DNA of 64,000 nt from Escherichia coli (lineage in GTDB: Bacteria; Pseudomonadota; Gammaproteobacteria; Enterobacterales; Enterobacteriaceae), in assembly GCF_024502345.1 (NCBI RefSeq), contig NZ_JALDNN010000001.1; one strand, given 5' to 3'. Made by a program: the position numbers and the translations under genes. This document shows, in pieces, positions 1,305 through 52,560 of this stretch. Position 1 is the first letter of the stretch, and each line of letters begins with the position of its first letter. Below the pieces are notes generated by a model. That model did not search any database. It was not told the DNA's origin and saw only the letters and a list, made by a program, of their open reading frames with translations.

Positions 1305-1477
1305 AAAGTTCTTTGACGTTGCATTGCTGGCGTAAATGTCAGCAATGCAGCATTTCCTCACGATTCTCCTTTGACGATCGCACTTTTTGCTCGTTATGAT
1401 GGCGTCGCTAGCCTCAGTAAATCCTTACTCCGGCGGTGCGCAACCCGTGCGCGTGAACCACTATCTGAATGCTCATC

Positions 1478-20708: not shown

Positions 20709-21797
20709 TCACGGCAGGCGGTGGCGGGCTTGATAATAAGCCTGCCAGTGAGCTTCTTTATGTGTGGCGACACGCTGTTCGAAGTAACGGCGCAGACGAG
20801 CGCGATCTTCTTCGTTATCTTTGACGATGGTTCCGGCAATACAGTCCACCAGATCGGCTGGCTCACCTGCGCGATTCGCTAAAAACCAGGCGCGGACGCC
20901 CACAGCGTGGGCCACGTTCACGGCTTCAGCGGTGGACATAATCGCTGTTAGTGTATCCATTGACGTTTTCTTTTCGCCGTTGGCACGCAGATCGCGGAAG
21001 GTGCGGACCAGTAACTCCAGTACCGCGTCAGGCACTTTATGCGGAATACCGCTATGGGCCAGCAAACGCGCCGAAGCACTGGCGACAAGCTCCAGCTCCT
21101 GGGCGAAATCCATAATCGGAAAGACAGTTTCAAAATCGAAGCGACGCTTTAGCGCAGCACTCATTTCATTGACGCCGCGATCGCGGGTATTGGCAGTGGC
21201 AATAATATTAAAGCCTTCTCGCGCATAGAGCTGACTGGCTTCACCAGTGAGTTCCGGCACCGTCATCACCCTGTCAGAAAGCATACCTAACAGACAGTCT
21301 TGCACTTCCAGCGGTGTACGCGTTATCTCTTCAAAACGGACGATTTTGCCGTCGCGCATTCCCTGGTAAAGCGGGGCAGGGACCAGCGCTTCCGTTGATG
21401 GACCATGATTGATAAGCAGGGCGTAGTTCCAGCCGTACTTGATTTGATCTTCGGTAGTAGATGCGCCGCCCTGGATGGTTAACCCGGCATCGCCGCTAAT
21501 AGAGGTTGCCAGTAATTCAGACAGGAGAGATTTTGCGGTGCCAGGTTCCCCCACCAACATCAAACCGCGTCCGGTGGCAAGAGTGACTAACATACGTTCG
21601 ACAGCGGAGGGACTAATCACCACTTTACGGCTAATATTTTGCGCGCTATCGCCAAGGATAAAAGCACGGGCCGCAGGCAAACTTAACTGCCAACCGGGCG
21701 GGCAAGGTGCGTTATCATTTTGTTTTAATTTTGCCAGTTCATCGGCGTATAACACAGCAGCAGGCGGACGCTGCAGATGATTATTCTGCGGTGACAT
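20709..21797 (-). CDS. yehL: MoxR-like AAA+ ATPase YehL
   Basis: Walker A GEPGTAKS; start trimmed to MSPQNNHLQRP (362 aa). Confidence 0.85.
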   Translation of the reverse strand: MSPQNNHLQRPPAAVLYADELAKLKQNDNAPCPPGWQLSLPAARAFILGDSAQNISRKVVISPSAVERMLVTLATGRGLMLVGEPGTAKSLLSELLATSISGDAGLTIQGGASTTEDQIKYGWNYALLINHGPSTEALVPAPLYQGMRDGKIVRFEEITRTPLEVQDCLLGMLSDRVMTVPELTGEASQLYAREGFNIIATANTRDRGVNEMSAALKRRFDFETVFPIMDFAQELELVASASARLLAHSGIPHKVPDAVLELLVRTFRDLRANGEKKTSMDTLTAIMSTAEAVNVAHAVGVRAWFLANRAGEPADLVDCIAGTIVKDNEEDRARLRRYFEQRVATHKEAHWQAYYQARHRLP

Positions 21798-21904
21798 ATA
21801 TTCATCCCTGAAATGTATTAATGAAATAAACGATATTTTACGCGCAATAAATGTTTGGCGCATTAGTTGTTTGAGCGAAAAATATCTGGAAAGCAGATCA
21901 CAGT

Positions 21905-22000
21905 AAATAAAAAAACCTGCTGGTGAGGCAGGTTCTTTTATTTACTATTTTCAGGCCTAACACCACAGCCTGTGCAACATCGTGTTCCAACGAACGAATT
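21905..22000 (-). ncRNA. orzO: putative Orz-like antitoxin sRNA, copy 1 (ends approximate)
   Basis: Minus-strand intrinsic terminator (stem aacctgc/gcaggtt at 21914..21934 followed by U-run on minus strand); 20-nt region 21972..21991 repeated directly in the zor leader at 22138..22157, as expected for a divergent base-pairing sRNA. Confidence 0.45.
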
Positions 22001-22229
22001 ATAACCACGGCTGGACCCCGTTGCAATTAAGATAATGAGATTTATAATCCTGACTGTTGGGACGTTGCGCCGGATCGAACCTATTTCAAGTCCTGGCTAC
22101 CGGACGGGGGGTGCTGCAGGTAGTGCCCTGATCCGGAGTGCAACATCGTGGTCCAACATACGTAAACCAGTATCGACAGGCAGTGTAAGGGTAAGGTGCT
22201 GGTGTTGCGCTCCTTAATAAGGAGAGCGG

Positions 22230-22319
22230 ATGGACTCGCTGACACAAAAGTTAACCGTGCTCATTGCTGTACTGGAGCTATTAGTGGCTCTGTTACGGTT
22301 GATTGATTTGTTGAAGTAA
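22230..22319 (+). CDS. zorO: type I toxin, 29-aa hydrophobic peptide MDSLTQKLTVLIAVLELLVALLRLIDLLK
   Basis: Hand-translated small ORF with SD aaggagag upstream; matches recalled Zor toxin of E. coli O157; followed by hairpin gggggaaaaccgcttccccc. Confidence 0.75.
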   Translation: MDSLTQKLTVLIAVLELLVALLRLIDLLK

Positions 22320-22511
22320 CGGGCAAATTGAAACGCATCTAAGGGGGAAAACCGCTTCCCCCTTTAATAAAATGATTACTGTTTTTATTAATTCATCATA
22401 TAACTCATTTTTATTTATAAATTCATCGATTTTATATTCAACGCACCATTTGACCGGGATGTGAATATTTATGTTGGGCTATTGGCAAAAAATATCTGGA
22501 AAGTAGATCGC

Positions 22512-22610
22512 AGAAAATAAAAAAACCTGCTGGTGAGGCAGGTTCTTTTATTTACTACAGTGACGCTAACTTGCTGATTGTGCAACATTTCGTACCAACG
22601 AATAAATTAT
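22512..22610 (-). ncRNA. orzP: putative Orz-like antitoxin sRNA, copy 2 (ends approximate)
   Basis: Same terminator hairpin at 22524..22544; region 22580..22600 repeated in the copy-2 leader at 22746..22766. Confidence 0.45.
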
Positions 22611-22837
22611 ATCCATATCCACACTCCATTGCAATTCAGTGAGTGAGATTTATAATCCTGCCCGTTGGGAGGTTGTGCCGGATCGGACCAATTTTAAGTC
22701 CTGGCTGCCGGACGGGTGGTGCCGCAGGCGGTGCCCTGATCCGGAGAGCAACGTTTCGTACCAACATACGTAAACCAGTATCAACAGGCAGTGTAAGGGT
22801 AAGGTGCTGGTGTTGCGCTCCTTAATAAGGAGAGCGG

Positions 22838-22927
22838 ATGGACACGCTGACACAAAAGTTAACCGTGCTCATTGCCGTACTGGAGTTATTAGTGGCTCTG
22901 TTACGGTTGATTGATTTGTTGAAGTAA
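22838..22927 (+). CDS. zorP: type I toxin, 29-aa peptide MDTLTQKLTVLIAVLELLVALLRLIDLLK
   Basis: Second small ORF, one residue different from copy 1 (T3 vs S3); same SD and terminator; O/P naming of the two copies is my guess. Confidence 0.75.
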   Translation: MDTLTQKLTVLIAVLELLVALLRLIDLLK

Positions 22928-23036
22928 CGGGCAAATTGAAACGCATCTAAGGGGGAATACCGTTTCCCCCTTTAAGAAAGCTATACTCGTCATACTTCAA
23001 GTTGCATGTGCTGCGACTTTAATTATCTAGAGTATA

Positions 23037-23354
23037 TTATTCTATTTCTTGGTTGAATATATTCTGTAGTTCACGATTAAAAATTGCTATTACAGTTTCA
23101 GGTGATTCACCTCGTAATTTCCGCTCATCAATACACTCATCTCTTATATAAATCAACGCATCATTTATTAGCGGGTCAGCATCTTCTCGATCACGTTGAT
23201 GAAATGTTGGATGTAGCCGGAATCGCTCCAGTCGATAGACGGAACCTGTAAATAATTCAGAGCATTTATGGATCTCAAGTCTGAAGGAAAACGGATCTTC
23301 AGGTACAGGGACCTCATAATCGTAAATAGCAACTAGCTCTTTTTGCACGATCAT
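23037..23354 (-). CDS. yehK: uncharacterised protein YehK
   Basis: 105-aa ORF; synteny between yehL and yehI. Confidence 0.7.
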   Translation of the reverse strand: MIVQKELVAIYDYEVPVPEDPFSFRLEIHKCSELFTGSVYRLERFRLHPTFHQRDREDADPLINDALIYIRDECIDERKLRGESPETVIAIFNRELQNIFNQEIE

Positions 23355-23414: not shown

Positions 23415-25622
23415 TTAATGGAAAATGACGTCAGGTGCGCTTAACGCCTCACTCAAATCAAACACATCAAGTTCGGCAAAAGTGACGGATTTATTGTCAC
23501 GGTACACTCGAAGAGAACGGAAGCTCATTAGCGCTTTGCTATCAACATTGTAGTGGTTAAAACCGGGTGAAAACTTAAGGACCAGCCGGTACTCGCCCAG
23601 GTCATAGACAAATGCATCCTCATAGCCTGACTCCCAGCCTTTGTATCGCATTCCCATAAGCTGCCCAACGGTAGCGGATTTACCTTCCCAGCGAGTCAGG
23701 CTGTTACTGGTTGACTCGTCAGGTGTGAGCAGCACCGTGCACCGCGCCAACTGGCGAAAAGGCGGCATAATTTCGTAATCGGCAAAAAGCTGTGCAAATT
23801 CACTGCGCATTTCTACTGTCATTTCTAACGGGTGGGCAATGCCAATCAGAGCGTCCGCAGGCAGGTCAATTGGCTCATCTTGCGCATTGCAGAACTCCCC
23901 CTCTGCGGCCACACGAAAGGCGTTGAGTAAACAACGCGGTTCATTTGCCGGATAAGCCCCCCATATTAATCGCTGGGTAACCAGACGGGTAAAGGGATGA
24001 TTAACAAACAGAGAATGAAAATCTGCCAGCGACCAGCGTCGGGTGGTACGTAGGGCCGTTTCAAGACGCGGGAGCAGGTTTTTGCTCACCTGAGTGGCAT
24101 CTTTTTTTAGCCCTTTTAGTCGGGCCAGTGCCTCGGGCGCTTTCAGTTGATCGTCATCGGCGCGCAACCGGGGAACGCTTTTCTGGCGAACGTTTTGCTG
24201 ATCAAAGATAACCGGGTTGAGGTTTTCATCGAAGCGAACGGTAAACTGCCGGGGACCAAAATCAAAACTCAACGCCTGCGGATCATCAAGGCCCAGGGTT
24301 GGGACTAATCTGTCCGCTAGCTCTTCCTGGCTTAGCCCGCGATTTTCTGCGACCACCTGAAGAAATTCCGCCGCGTTATCACGTAAGGGGCGGGATTTCG
24401 CCCGTTGCGATATATGATGCAGCTGTATCAGCGCCATATCATTATTCATCAGGGTAAGGATGTTCAGGCCACTGACAGCACGGGCAGATTTGCCTTCTTG
24501 TGGCCAGCCGAGGATCTGTGTCGTTAGATCCCGTGCCGTGCTTTCGTCACCAAAGAGACTTAACGCCAGAAATGCCCAGTTGTCTTTTACGGGGGCACCA
24601 GCTTGTTGCCACGCAGTGAAGAGATCCCAGGCAAAAGCTGCCAGCGTTTGTGGCTGGCAGAACGTTTTCAGTTGTTCCAGCCCGCTATAAAAACGTCCCC
24701 CCTGGGTAAAGCGCAGCATTTCGCCGATAATTTCCAGAGCGTCATCGGTAACAGGTTGATTATTAGTGATAAGGCGCGGCCTGGACCACATTTGCGGATG
24801 CCAGAAATCAGGGGCTTTTGGAATGCGTGCCGGGTAAATCTCTATTGGACTCTGTTTAAGTAATTGTTCCAGGGCAGGCCATAGATCTGTACGCTGCCAA
24901 CGATTGGCTACAGTTTGTAGCAATTCGCCATGCCCATGTTCGTAAAGTAAACGCAGGGCAAGTAATGCAGCTTCGCTTTTATCGCTAGATTTGGTGAAGA
25001 CAAGAGGGATAAGTGCAGTAGCCGTATGTTCCGGCCATTGTAAAATCCACTGGCGAGCCAGATTACGCTGGCCCGCAAAACGCTGCCAGCAGCTTTCCTC
25101 TGCCAGAGAGAGATGCTTACGCAGTCGGAGATCGAATTCGTTATAGGTTTCTGAGCGATAACCATAGCCATAATCCTCGTCCTGATACTGCAATGTCACT
25201 ACCAGAGGATCACTCTCATAACACCGCGCAATAAACTGGCGTGCAATCACCACCTCAGTCGCATATTCCAGCCCCTCTTGTTGGACGATTTCGTCGAGCA
25301 ACTGTTGGCTGTCATTTTGCGCGATACAGGCTAGCGCCGCCATTGTCCGGGGCGGGATTGAGGGTTTGTGTTCGCCGATCAAGTTGATGGCCTGCGTGAT
25401 GGCGGACTGCCACTCCAGTGAAAAATTTTCATAACGCCAGACAATGTTTTTTTTCTTCTCAGCTTTTTGTAGCAATTCATCACCCAGTGTCTGAATGATG
25501 CTTTCAGTGATAACAGGCACTGGTTCGCCCGGCCAATTGCGATGGCTGAGTGGTGTTTTACCATTTTTATATTTCAGTTCCAGTTGGGCGTTATCAGCCA
25601 GCCACGGTAATTCCTTGTCCAT
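23415..25622 (-). CDS. yehI: DUF4132-type protein, paralog of MolR C-terminal region
   Basis: 735-aa ORF sharing long blocks with the adjacent 1264-aa ORF (LRLRKHLSLAEES; FAWDLFTAW...GPRQFTV). Confidence 0.75.
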   Translation of the reverse strand: MDKELPWLADNAQLELKYKNGKTPLSHRNWPGEPVPVITESIIQTLGDELLQKAEKKKNIVWRYENFSLEWQSAITQAINLIGEHKPSIPPRTMAALACIAQNDSQQLLDEIVQQEGLEYATEVVIARQFIARCYESDPLVVTLQYQDEDYGYGYRSETYNEFDLRLRKHLSLAEESCWQRFAGQRNLARQWILQWPEHTATALIPLVFTKSSDKSEAALLALRLLYEHGHGELLQTVANRWQRTDLWPALEQLLKQSPIEIYPARIPKAPDFWHPQMWSRPRLITNNQPVTDDALEIIGEMLRFTQGGRFYSGLEQLKTFCQPQTLAAFAWDLFTAWQQAGAPVKDNWAFLALSLFGDESTARDLTTQILGWPQEGKSARAVSGLNILTLMNNDMALIQLHHISQRAKSRPLRDNAAEFLQVVAENRGLSQEELADRLVPTLGLDDPQALSFDFGPRQFTVRFDENLNPVIFDQQNVRQKSVPRLRADDDQLKAPEALARLKGLKKDATQVSKNLLPRLETALRTTRRWSLADFHSLFVNHPFTRLVTQRLIWGAYPANEPRCLLNAFRVAAEGEFCNAQDEPIDLPADALIGIAHPLEMTVEMRSEFAQLFADYEIMPPFRQLARCTVLLTPDESTSNSLTRWEGKSATVGQLMGMRYKGWESGYEDAFVYDLGEYRLVLKFSPGFNHYNVDSKALMSFRSLRVYRDNKSVTFAELDVFDLSEALSAPDVIFH

Positions 25623-44499: not shown

Positions 44500-44625
44500 A
44501 CCAAACGACTCGGGGTGCCCTTCTGCGTGAAGGCTGAGAAATACCCGTATCACCTGATCTGGATAATGCCAGCGTAGGGAAGTCACGGACCACCAGGTCA
44601 TTGCTTCTTCACGTTATGGCAGGAG
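44500..44625 (+). promoter_or_regulatory. TPP (thi-box) riboswitch of thiMD
   Basis: ccaaacgactcggggtgcccttctgcgtgaaggctgagaaatacccgtatcacctgatctggataatgccagcgtagggaagtc directly upstream of thiM. Confidence 0.9.
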
Positions 44626-52429: not shown

Positions 52430-52560
52430 GCACTACCCCGTAGGACGGATAAGGCGTTTACGCCGCATCCGGCAACCTATGCCTGATGCGACGCTGAAGC
52501 GTCTTATCATGCCTACGCAGCGCTGCCACATATGTTTACACCGCATCCGGCATAAAAACA
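52430..52560. repeat. REP/BIME palindromic element cluster
   Basis: Repeated gccggatgcggcgtaaacgcc / gcctgatgcgacgc type palindromes between fbaB and gatY. Confidence 0.6.

What the first reader, a model, noticed from the sequence alone, without database searches (positions are those of the whole stretch)
21972..22766. Copy-specific sRNA/leader pairing segments differ between the two zor-orz units
Within each unit a 20-nt segment of the putative sRNA gene is repeated directly in the toxin leader (copy 1: gtgcaacatcgtgttccaac at 21972..21991 vs gtgcaacatcgtggtccaac at 22138..22157; copy 2: gtgcaacatttcgtaccaacg at 22580..22600 vs gagcaacgtttcgtaccaaca at 22746..22766). A direct repeat in DNA is what a divergently transcribed, trans-pairing antisense RNA needs. 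The two copies differ at several positions inside this segment while the rest of the unit is nearly identical, consistent with each antitoxin being matched to its own toxin mRNA.
Basis: seen in the sequence. Interest (0 to 1): 0.45.

Follow-up and report, generated by a model that had tools for sequence, protein, structure and literature searches.

The report
Known zorP-orzP / zorO-orzO antitoxin specificity segments
The two repeated 20-base segments are the pairing sites of the already published E. coli zorP-orzP and zorO-orzO toxin/antitoxin-RNA pairs, so this is a correct reading of an ordinary, already explained feature: each small RNA is matched to its own toxin mRNA.

Summary
Copy 1 is zorP-orzP and copy 2 is zorO-orzO, the tandem type I toxin-antitoxin locus between yehL and yehK of many E. 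coli. Both sRNA genes match Rfam RF02083 (OrzO-P) at 99.9 and 88.8 bits against a gathering score of 60. The toxins are exactly the published 29-residue ZorP and ZorO.

The repeated segment is the first 20 nt of each minus-strand Orz RNA and its target 73-92 nt upstream of the zor start codon. All four bases that differ between the two sRNA seeds have matching differences in the leaders. Predicted duplexes are -34.0 and -31.3 kcal/mol for the cognate pairs, against -18.9 and -24.4 for the non-cognate pairs. Across four alleles from E. coli and related Escherichia, 5 of 20 pairs show compensatory double changes.

Wen, Won and Fozo (NAR 2014) showed experimentally that OrzP cannot repress zorO. 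They traced this to Orz nt +9 to +11, which are GAA in OrzO and ACG in OrzP, exactly as here. A 2024 mSystems survey covers the population variation.

One clause is overstated. The rest of the unit is not uniformly near-identical: the middle of orz is only 33% identical between copies.

Verdict: already known, low interest. The only part I found untested is the reciprocal case with zorP as target.

The parts
21909..21991 (-). orzP antitoxin sRNA gene (about 83 nt). The 5' end is GUUGGAACACGAUGUUGCAC. The 3' end is a 12-bp terminator hairpin followed by U7.
   Evidence: Rfam RF02083 at 99.9 bits over 21909-21984. The promoter -10 ends at 21998. +1 is placed at 21991 because the published V1 ACG at +9 to +11 fits only that start (plus the sequence). 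Fold.
21972..21991 (-). OrzP seed (nt +1 to +20). It pairs with the zorP leader in a 6(1)13 pattern: 19 pairs with one A/G mismatch at +7.
21998..22026 (-). orzP promoter: TTGCAA, 17-nt spacer, TATAAT. The -35 hexamer is shared with zorP.
   Evidence: the same hexamers are reported as conserved in PMC11264685
22021..22048 (+). zorP promoter: TTGCAA, 16-nt spacer, TATAAT.
22056..22229 (+). zorP 5' UTR (174 nt). Nt +1 to +18 are predicted to pair in cis with +78 to +102. The SD AAGGAG at +164 to +169 lies in a hairpin.
   Evidence: The UTR length and the RBS position +164 to +169 agree with PMC5397157.
22138..22157 (+). OrzP binding site in the zorP leader (+83 to +102).
22230..22319 (+). zorP ORF, encoding the 29-aa toxin MDSLTQKLTVLIAVLELLVALLRLIDLLK.
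   Evidence: ZorP is ZorO with T3S according to PMC11264685.
22341..22364 (+). zorP terminator hairpin AAGGGGGAAAACCGCTTCCCCCTT.
22519..22599 (-). orzO antitoxin sRNA gene (about 81 nt). The 5' end is GUUGGUACGAAAUGUUGCAC.
   Evidence: Rfam RF02083 at 88.8 bits over 22519-22592. Promoter. V1 GAA falls at +9 to +11 (plus the sequence).
22582..22599 (-). OrzO seed (nt +1 to +18): 18 continuous pairs with zorO, including one G-U.
   Evidence: PMC3919570 states 18 nt of continuous pairing.
22606..22634 (-). orzO promoter: TTGCAA, 17-nt spacer, TATAAT.
22629..22656 (+). zorO promoter: TTGCAA, 16-nt spacer, TATAAT.
22664..22837 (+). zorO 5' UTR (174 nt).
   Evidence: PMC5397157
22748..22765 (+). OrzO binding site in the zorO leader (+85 to +102, at the 3' end of the published EAP region +73 to +102).
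22838..22927 (+). zorO ORF, encoding the 29-aa toxin MDTLTQKLTVLIAVLELLVALLRLIDLLK.
22949..22972 (+). zorO terminator hairpin.

Best explanation
The window carries the tandem type I toxin-antitoxin locus zorP-orzP (copy 1) and zorO-orzO (copy 2) of E. coli.

Each unit makes two transcripts from back-to-back sigma-70 promoters that share one palindromic -35 hexamer:
- a plus-strand zor mRNA with a 174-nt leader and a 29-codon membrane-toxin ORF;
- a minus-strand Orz sRNA of about 81-83 nt.

The first 18-20 nt of Orz pair in trans with leader positions +83/+85 to +102. Published work on zorO-orzO shows that this pairing blocks a ribosome standby region (EAP), which is exposed after the first 28 nt of the leader are removed. 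It also triggers RNase III-dependent decay.

The conserved flanks of the duplex (GUUGG/CCAAC and GUUGC/GCAAC) are common to all alleles. The central core, Orz +5 to +11, differs between the copies and co-varies with the cognate leader. Each antitoxin therefore recognises its own toxin mRNA and not the neighbour's.

Shown here: the anatomy, the complementarity, the covariation and the predicted energy gap. Shown in the literature, for zorO as target: repression, its V1 dependence and the failure of OrzP. Inferred: that zorP-orzP works in the same way, and that OrzO does not effectively repress zorP.
For: - Rfam OrzO-P hits at 99.9 and 88.8 bits against a gathering score of 60.
- Divergent TTGCAA/TATAAT promoter pairs.
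- Toxin ORFs identical to ZorP and ZorO.
- Exact segments, each unique to its own partner.
- Seed-site duplex energies: cognate -34.0 and -31.3 kcal/mol, non-cognate -18.9 and -24.4.
- Net energy after opening costs: -17.8 and -15.8 against -3.6 and -7.9 with the full-length mRNA; -23.0 and -20.9 against -8.7 and -13.1 with the mRNA lacking its first 28 nt.
- Register-locked pairing patterns: P x P 6(1)13 and O x O 18 continuous. The non-cognate pairs reach only 15-16 pairs in the 18-20 nt register, with several interruptions. That is below the published threshold of 15 continuous or 17 discontinuous pairs.
- Covariation over four alleles: 95% of cells paired, 5 of 20 pairs with changes on both sides, and a covariation score of 0.40 against 0.19 in shuffles (0 of 500 reach it). 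Sliding the register drops pairing to 26-40%.
- Published experiments (PMC3919570): OrzP does not rescue from zorO. OrzP with V1 changed from ACG to GAA does rescue. OrzO carrying the OrzP V1 does not, and a compensatory zorO V1 mutation restores repression.
- Predicted SD at +164 to +169 and site at +85 to +102 match PMC5397157.
Against: - Nothing contradicts the identification.
- I found no experimental test with zorP as target in the searchable literature.
- The OrzO x zorP duplex is predicted to be fairly stable (-24.4 kcal/mol, 16 pairs), so insulation may be less complete in that direction.
- The energies are thermodynamic predictions, not measurements.
- The covariation sample holds only four distinct alleles.
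Confidence: 0.95

Rival explanations
1. Redundancy or cross-talk: both Orz sRNAs repress both zor mRNAs, and the sequence differences have no functional effect.
For: The conserved flanks give 15-16 possible pairs in the non-cognate combinations. OrzO x zorP is still -24.4 kcal/mol. zorP as a target appears untested.
Against: OrzP fails to repress zorO experimentally although it is expressed at an equal level, and V1 swaps reverse the outcome (PMC3919570). The net predicted energies differ by 8-14 kcal/mol. Non-cognate pairings fall below the published 15-continuous or 17-discontinuous rule.
Confidence: 0.07
2. The within-unit direct repeat is a relic of how the unit arose, or is kept alike by local gene conversion. 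It does not reflect selection for RNA pairing.
For: The 5' ends of the orz and zor transcripts also resemble each other (GTTGG..AC..GTTGC), which hints at an inverted duplication around the shared -35 hexamer.
Against: Four alleles keep 95% pairing through compensatory changes at five positions. G-U wobbles are tolerated exactly where DNA identity is lost. A 20-nt tract is shorter than what homologous gene conversion usually needs (general knowledge). Compensatory mutagenesis shows that the pairing is functional.
Confidence: 0.03
3. The pairing is functional, but the copy-specific differences are neutral co-drift after duplication. They were not selected to insulate the two systems.
For: The most divergent parts of the unit are not the pairing segments. 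The middle of orz is 33% identical and the promoter spacer 62%, and the sRNA seed is no more diverged than the rest of orz (p = 0.74).
Against: In the leader the site is strongly enriched for differences (p = 2e-4). All 7 two-copy loci sampled carry two different alleles: P+O, P+Q or O+Q. The P and O alleles are identical in pairing sequence in three other Escherichia species, so they are old and stable, not drifting. None of this is decisive, and the sampled loci are not phylogenetically independent.
Confidence: 0.25
4. Orz acts as a cis-antisense RNA that overlaps the zor transcript.
For: None beyond the closeness of the two genes.
Against: The transcription starts are 64 nt apart and point away from each other (21991 minus against 22056 plus; 22599 minus against 22664 plus). 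There is no overlap.
Confidence: 0.01

Closest known systems
zorO-orzO / zorP-orzP of E. coli O157:H7 EDL933 (Fozo et al. 2010; Wen, Won, Fozo 2014, PMC3919570; Wen et al. 2017, PMC5397157)
   Same: Everything that could be tested. The toxin peptides are ZorP (S3) and ZorO (T3). The V1 bases at +9 to +11 are ACG and GAA. OrzO-zorO has 18 continuous pairs. OrzP gives 15 pairs to zorO, and 5(1)12 once its V1 is swapped. The leader is 174 nt with the RBS at +164 to +169. The hexamers are TTGCAA and TATAAT, and the units are in tandem.
   Different: Nothing of substance was found. The strain is not identical to any record searched: the best match for the locus is 99.8% (strain E2865).
zorQ-orzQ, the third allele described in the mSystems 2024 survey (PMC11264685)
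   Same: Same architecture and the same conserved flanks of the duplex. It occupies the second slot in some E. coli (L005-L008).
   Different: The core of the seed and site differs (GGCATCT/GGCGACT), and it is predicted to be orthogonal to both P and O. It is not present in this window.
tisB-istR1 and shoB-ohsC of E. coli
   Same: A divergently encoded trans-acting antitoxin sRNA pairs far upstream of a sequestered RBS. In tisB the target is a standby site exposed by 5' processing (stated in PMC5397157).
   Different: The sequences and toxins are unrelated. These loci are single-copy, so no discrimination between sibling pairs is needed. OhsC and IstR do not repress zorO.
Multicopy type I families with sibling discrimination (ibs-sib, ldr-rdl); from my own knowledge, not tested here
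   Same: Several near-identical toxin/sRNA pairs sit in one genome, and each sRNA prefers its cognate mRNA through a few variable nucleotides.
   Different: Those sRNAs are cis-antisense and fully complementary to their targets. Orz is trans-encoded with only 18-19 pairs.

Membership tests
Zor-Orz type I toxin-antitoxin (Rfam RF02083 OrzO-P) | The sRNA matches the OrzO-P covariance model above its gathering score. | tested here: met
   99.9 and 88.8 bits against a gathering score of 60, with the full model length matched, on the minus strand.
Zor-Orz type I toxin-antitoxin (Rfam RF02083 OrzO-P) | A 29-aa hydrophobic Zor toxin ORF (ZorO, or ZorP which is T3S). | tested here: met
   ORFs at 22230-22319 (MDSL..., ZorP) and 22838-22927 (MDTL..., ZorO). 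The variant definitions come from PMC11264685.
Zor-Orz type I toxin-antitoxin (Rfam RF02083 OrzO-P) | Divergent, non-overlapping zor and orz genes with -35 TTGCAA and -10 TATAAT. | tested here: met
   Four promoter matches at 10 of 12 positions, in two back-to-back pairs that share the -35 hexamer. The hexamers are as in Table 3 of PMC11264685.
Zor-Orz type I toxin-antitoxin (Rfam RF02083 OrzO-P) | [quoted passage not shown] | tested here: met
   P x P has 19 pairs in a 6(1)13 pattern, at 73-92 nt upstream of the ATG. O x O has 18 continuous pairs, at 73-90 nt upstream.
Zor-Orz type I toxin-antitoxin (Rfam RF02083 OrzO-P) | The V1 discriminator at Orz +9 to +11 is GAA in OrzO and ACG in OrzP. 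| tested here: met
   Copy 2 reads GUUGGUAC-GAA and copy 1 reads GUUGGAAC-ACG (sequences; for the definition).
Zor-Orz type I toxin-antitoxin (Rfam RF02083 OrzO-P) | A long structured leader with a sequestered RBS, and a site that opens after removal of the first 28 nt. | tested here: met
   By prediction only. The probability that the SD is unpaired is 0.07 in the full-length mRNA of both copies. After removal of the first 28 nt it stays sequestered in zorO (0.08), as published, but rises to 0.36 in the zorP prediction. Site opening energy falls from 10.0 to 4.8 kcal/mol (copy 1) and from 9.0 to 3.9 (copy 2). This is consistent with the probing data in PMC5397157.
Zor-Orz type I toxin-antitoxin (Rfam RF02083 OrzO-P) | Zor overproduction is toxic, and the cognate Orz represses it in an RNase III-dependent way. 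| not testable with these tools
   Published for EDL933 zorO-orzO only. I found no report for zorP-orzP in the held library.
Zor-Orz type I toxin-antitoxin (Rfam RF02083 OrzO-P) | The same chromosomal position as in other E. coli. | tested here: met
   The locus lies between yehL and yehK in the window and in all 10 E. coli records fetched.

The most novel reading that the evidence does not exclude
Insulation between the two pairs may be asymmetric. OrzP is fully excluded from zorO (-18.9 kcal/mol, shown experimentally). OrzO keeps a fairly stable predicted duplex with zorP (-24.4 kcal/mol, 16 pairs) and might partly repress it, which would give a one-way hierarchy between the tandem systems. 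A related open point is the internal mismatch at Orz +7. It is conserved in the P and Q alleles, including in other Escherichia species, and is absent only from O. It might tune RNase III cleavage or the strength of repression instead of being merely tolerated.
Probability: 0.15. Interest if true: 0.3.

Novelty: already known. Interest (0 to 1): 0.1.

Why it matters
The finding is a clean natural example of how a few nucleotides in an sRNA seed keep duplicated toxin-antitoxin modules from interfering with each other. That lesson was published in 2014 and surveyed at population scale in 2024.

For this window the practical value is annotation. The RefSeq records of related strains that I fetched annotate neither the zor toxins nor the orz sRNAs, so the 1.2-kb stretch between yehL and yehK looks empty there although it holds four genes.

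Tried and rejected
1. A second, copy-specific interaction through the very divergent middle of the sRNA (nt 21-47). Duplex energies with the cognate and non-cognate mRNAs are no better than shuffled controls and show no cognate preference. Rejected.
2. Duplex prediction with the full-length RNAs and no intramolecular structure gives meaningless long duplexes (part B). I replaced it with seed-site duplex energy plus opening energies, and with cofolding.
3. NCBIfam has no model for the 29-aa toxin, so identification of the toxin rests on exact identity to the published peptides.
4. A scan of one genome per species for the SD hairpin GCGCTCCTTAATAAGGAGAGCG found only three other Escherichia species. 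The cross-species sample is therefore small, and I found no more distant homologues that way.
5. The sub-threshold Rfam hits in the region (STnc370, Thr and Trp leaders, isrH, CrcZ) all lie below their gathering scores. The STnc370 and Thr-leader alignments that were displayed rest mainly on the terminator hairpin. Rejected as chance.
6. A literature search for any test of zorP as a target found only the two Fozo-lab papers, and neither tests it.

Full report
**Observation.** The four quoted segments are at exactly the stated coordinates. With up to three mismatches allowed, each 20-mer matches only itself and its partner within the same unit in the whole 64-kb window. Shuffles give an expectation of 0.00-0.01. 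The copy 1 repeat differs at one position (T/G at position 14). The copy 2 repeat differs at two positions within the first 20 (positions 2 and 8). The 21st base quoted for copy 2 is a mismatch and lies outside the sRNA.

**Anatomy.** The region between yehL (20709-21863, minus strand) and yehK (23037-23354, minus strand) holds a tandem duplication with a period of about 608-610 bp. Each unit has these parts:
- Two sigma-70-like promoters set back to back, which use the same palindromic -35 hexamer TTGCAA (22021-22026 and 22629-22634). A TATAAT box lies 17 nt away on the minus strand and 16 nt away on the plus strand.
- A minus-strand transcript that begins GUUGG at 21991 or 22599. It ends in a 12-bp hairpin followed by U7 at 21909 or 22519.
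- A plus-strand transcript that begins at about 22056 or 22664. It has a 174-nt leader, a 29-codon ORF (22230-22319 or 22838-22927) and a G-rich terminator hairpin.

These start points place the SD AAGGAG at +164 to +169 and the target site at +83/+85 to +102. Those are the positions published for zorO (PMC5397157). The two transcripts of a unit start 64 nt apart and diverge, so the pairing is in trans.

**Identity.** Both minus-strand genes match Rfam RF02083 (OrzO-P antitoxin family) at 99.9 and 88.8 bits, against a gathering score of 60. The peptides are MDSLTQKLTVLIAVLELLVALLRLIDLLK (copy 1) and MDTLTQKLTVLIAVLELLVALLRLIDLLK (copy 2). These are ZorP (T3S) and ZorO as defined in PMC11264685. 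The published discriminator V1 at Orz +9 to +11 is GAA in OrzO and ACG in OrzP (PMC3919570). Copy 2 reads GUUGGUAC-GAA and copy 1 reads GUUGGAAC-ACG. Copy 1 is therefore zorP-orzP and copy 2 is zorO-orzO.

The published pairing bookkeeping is reproduced exactly by the window sequence (and direct reading):
- OrzO-zorO has 18 continuous pairs.
- OrzP-zorO has 15 pairs.
- The OrzP V1 mutant pairs with zorO in a 5(1)12 pattern.

The same yehL-yehK position holds the locus in every E. coli record I fetched.

**Copy specificity.** The two seeds differ at Orz +6, +9, +10 and +11. The leaders differ at the four partner positions in the compensating sense, and also at the partners of +7, +13 and +19.

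Seed-site duplex energies:

| sRNA x leader | Duplex energy (kcal/mol) |
|---|---|
| OrzP x zorP | -34.0 |
| OrzO x zorO | -31.3 |
| OrzP x zorO | -18.9 |
| OrzO x zorP | -24.4 |

Net energies after adding the cost of opening both partners:

| mRNA form | Cognate pairs (kcal/mol) | Non-cognate pairs (kcal/mol) |
|---|---|---|
| Full-length | -17.8, -15.8 | -3.6, -7.9 |
| First 28 nt removed | -23.0, -20.9 | -8.7, -13.1 |

Cofolding gives the same ranking. The non-cognate pairings have only 15-16 pairs in the 18-20 nt register, broken by several interruptions. That is below the experimentally derived requirement of 15 continuous or 17 discontinuous pairs.

**Independent covariation.** I extracted 20 units from the window, nine further E. 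coli records and three other Escherichia species found by a scan for the SD hairpin. They fall into these classes:
- three main alleles, P, O and Q;
- one variant orz seed combined with a Q leader (L011);
- one P unit with a 4-nt deletion at the orz 5' end (L012).

On the four full-length alleles, 95% of cells are standard pairs and 5 of 20 pairs show changes on both sides (Orz +5, +6, +9, +10, +11). The covariation score is 0.40 against 0.19 in shuffles, and 0 of 500 shuffles reach it. Sliding the register by 1-3 columns drops pairing to 26-40%. The sample is only four rows, so these numbers are supportive, not strong.

The all-against-all matrix shows three mutually orthogonal alleles. Cognate energies are -31 to -34 kcal/mol and non-cognate energies are -16 to -24 kcal/mol. 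All seven two-copy loci carry two different alleles (P+O three times, P+Q three times, O+Q once). These loci are not phylogenetically independent.

**Mechanism.** Published experiments on EDL933 zorO-orzO show the following:
- ZorO overproduction is toxic.
- OrzO rescues the cells and needs RNase III to do so.
- The first 18 nt of OrzO are sufficient for repression.
- OrzP does not rescue although it is expressed at an equal level.
- V1 swaps exchange the specificity, and a compensatory zorO V1 mutation restores repression.
[quoted passage not shown] This region becomes single-stranded after the first 28 nt of the leader are removed, and it acts as a likely ribosome standby site.

My predictions on the window sequence agree with this. 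In the full-length mRNA, nt +1 to +18 pair with +78 to +102. The SD is sequestered, with a probability of 0.07 of being unpaired. Removing the first 28 nt lowers the cost of opening the site by about 5 kcal/mol in both copies.

In the predicted structure the variable core of the site (+93 to +97) is looped out. The conserved flanks CCAAC and GCAAC pair with the mRNA's own 5' end GUUGG...GUUGC. My inference is that the flanks are constrained twice, by the cis partner and by Orz, and this may explain why allelic variation is confined to the core.

**What is overstated.** The claim that the rest of the unit is nearly identical holds for the orz terminator, the downstream leader, the ORF and the 3' end (94-100% identity). 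It does not hold for the middle of orz (33%), the orz promoter spacer (62%) or the upstream leader (88%). Differences are enriched in the pairing segment only on the leader side (p = 2e-4). The divergent middle of the sRNA does not provide a second cognate-specific contact.

**Novelty.** Both the observation and its interpretation are in the literature. PMC3919570 (2014) has a section headed 'Orz regulation is target specific'. [quoted passage not shown]

What I could not find tested is zorP as a target. The predicted OrzO x zorP duplex is the least disfavoured non-cognate pair, so one-way partial cross-talk is not excluded.

**Verdict.** This is a correct reading of an already known feature. 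Interest is 0.1.

Noticed in passing
window 22056-22073 and 22664-22681 (zor mRNA +1 to +18), pairing with 22133-22157 and 22741-22765: The 5' end of each zor mRNA (GUUGGGA.GUUGYGCC) resembles the 5' end of its Orz sRNA. In the predicted MFE it pairs in cis with the same site that Orz binds, and the allele-specific core (+93 to +97) is looped out. The two divergent transcripts thus start with related sequences on either side of a shared palindromic -35 hexamer, which hints at an inverted-duplication origin.
   Followed up: partly
window 21985 / 22151 (Orz +7 and its partner); also L002, L004 and L005-L008: Orz +7 is a mismatch in the P, Q and Q-variant alleles and is paired only in the O allele. 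The P-type mismatch is identical in E. whittamii and in Escherichia sp. MOD1-EC7003, so it is old and conserved.
   Followed up: partly
window 21948-21971 against 22558-22579: The middle of the orz genes is the most divergent part of the duplicated unit: 33% identity and a 2-nt length difference. I found no cognate-specific complementarity to the zor mRNA there.
   Followed up: yes
window 22021-22026 and 22629-22634: One palindromic TTGCAA hexamer serves as the -35 box for both divergent promoters of each unit.
   Followed up: partly
L012:1606-2016 (E. coli 82.0312): This single-copy P-type unit has a 4-nt deletion at the orz 5' end (the GTTG of the seed is lost), while the zor leader site is intact. 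The predicted cognate duplex drops from -34.0 to -28.8 kcal/mol.
   Followed up: partly
L011:1606-2018 (E. coli FDAARGOS_1301): A variant orz seed (GUUGGGGCGCCAUGUUGCAU) sits with a Q-type leader. It still gives 19 pairs and -32.9 kcal/mol, but it is also predicted to bind the P leader fairly well (-27.5).
   Followed up: partly
L001, L005-L013 (RefSeq E. coli records): None of the fetched RefSeq records annotates the zor ORFs or the orz sRNAs, so the interval between yehL and yehK appears empty. NCBIfam has no model for the 29-aa toxin. The toxin protein variant is also not tied to the pairing allele: most P-type units sampled encode the ZorO peptide (T3), not ZorP.
   Followed up: partly
window 21984-21991 and 22592-22599: The Rfam RF02083 model starts at Orz +8, so it leaves out the first 7 nt of the sRNA, which are part of the pairing seed.
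   Followed up: no
window 23415-25622 (yehI), junction near 25079-25089: yehI is 735 codons here instead of 1210. It has an in-frame internal deletion of 1425 nt relative to the closest genome (NCTC9064, 99.9% identical on both flanks), with an 11-nt repeat at the junction.
   Followed up: partly
window 1393-1473, 44501-44597, 52443-52513: Other Rfam matches above gathering score: Peptidase-S11 RNA, the TPP riboswitch and naRNA4. These are ordinary E. coli features and I did not examine them further.
   Followed up: no
L013:1606-1790 (E. coli K-12 BW2952): The K-12 lineage keeps only the orz side of one unit (185 nt aligned, 96% identity) and has no zor ORF. This matches the published 'orz-only' OrzPmg locus (PMC11264685).
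   Followed up: partly
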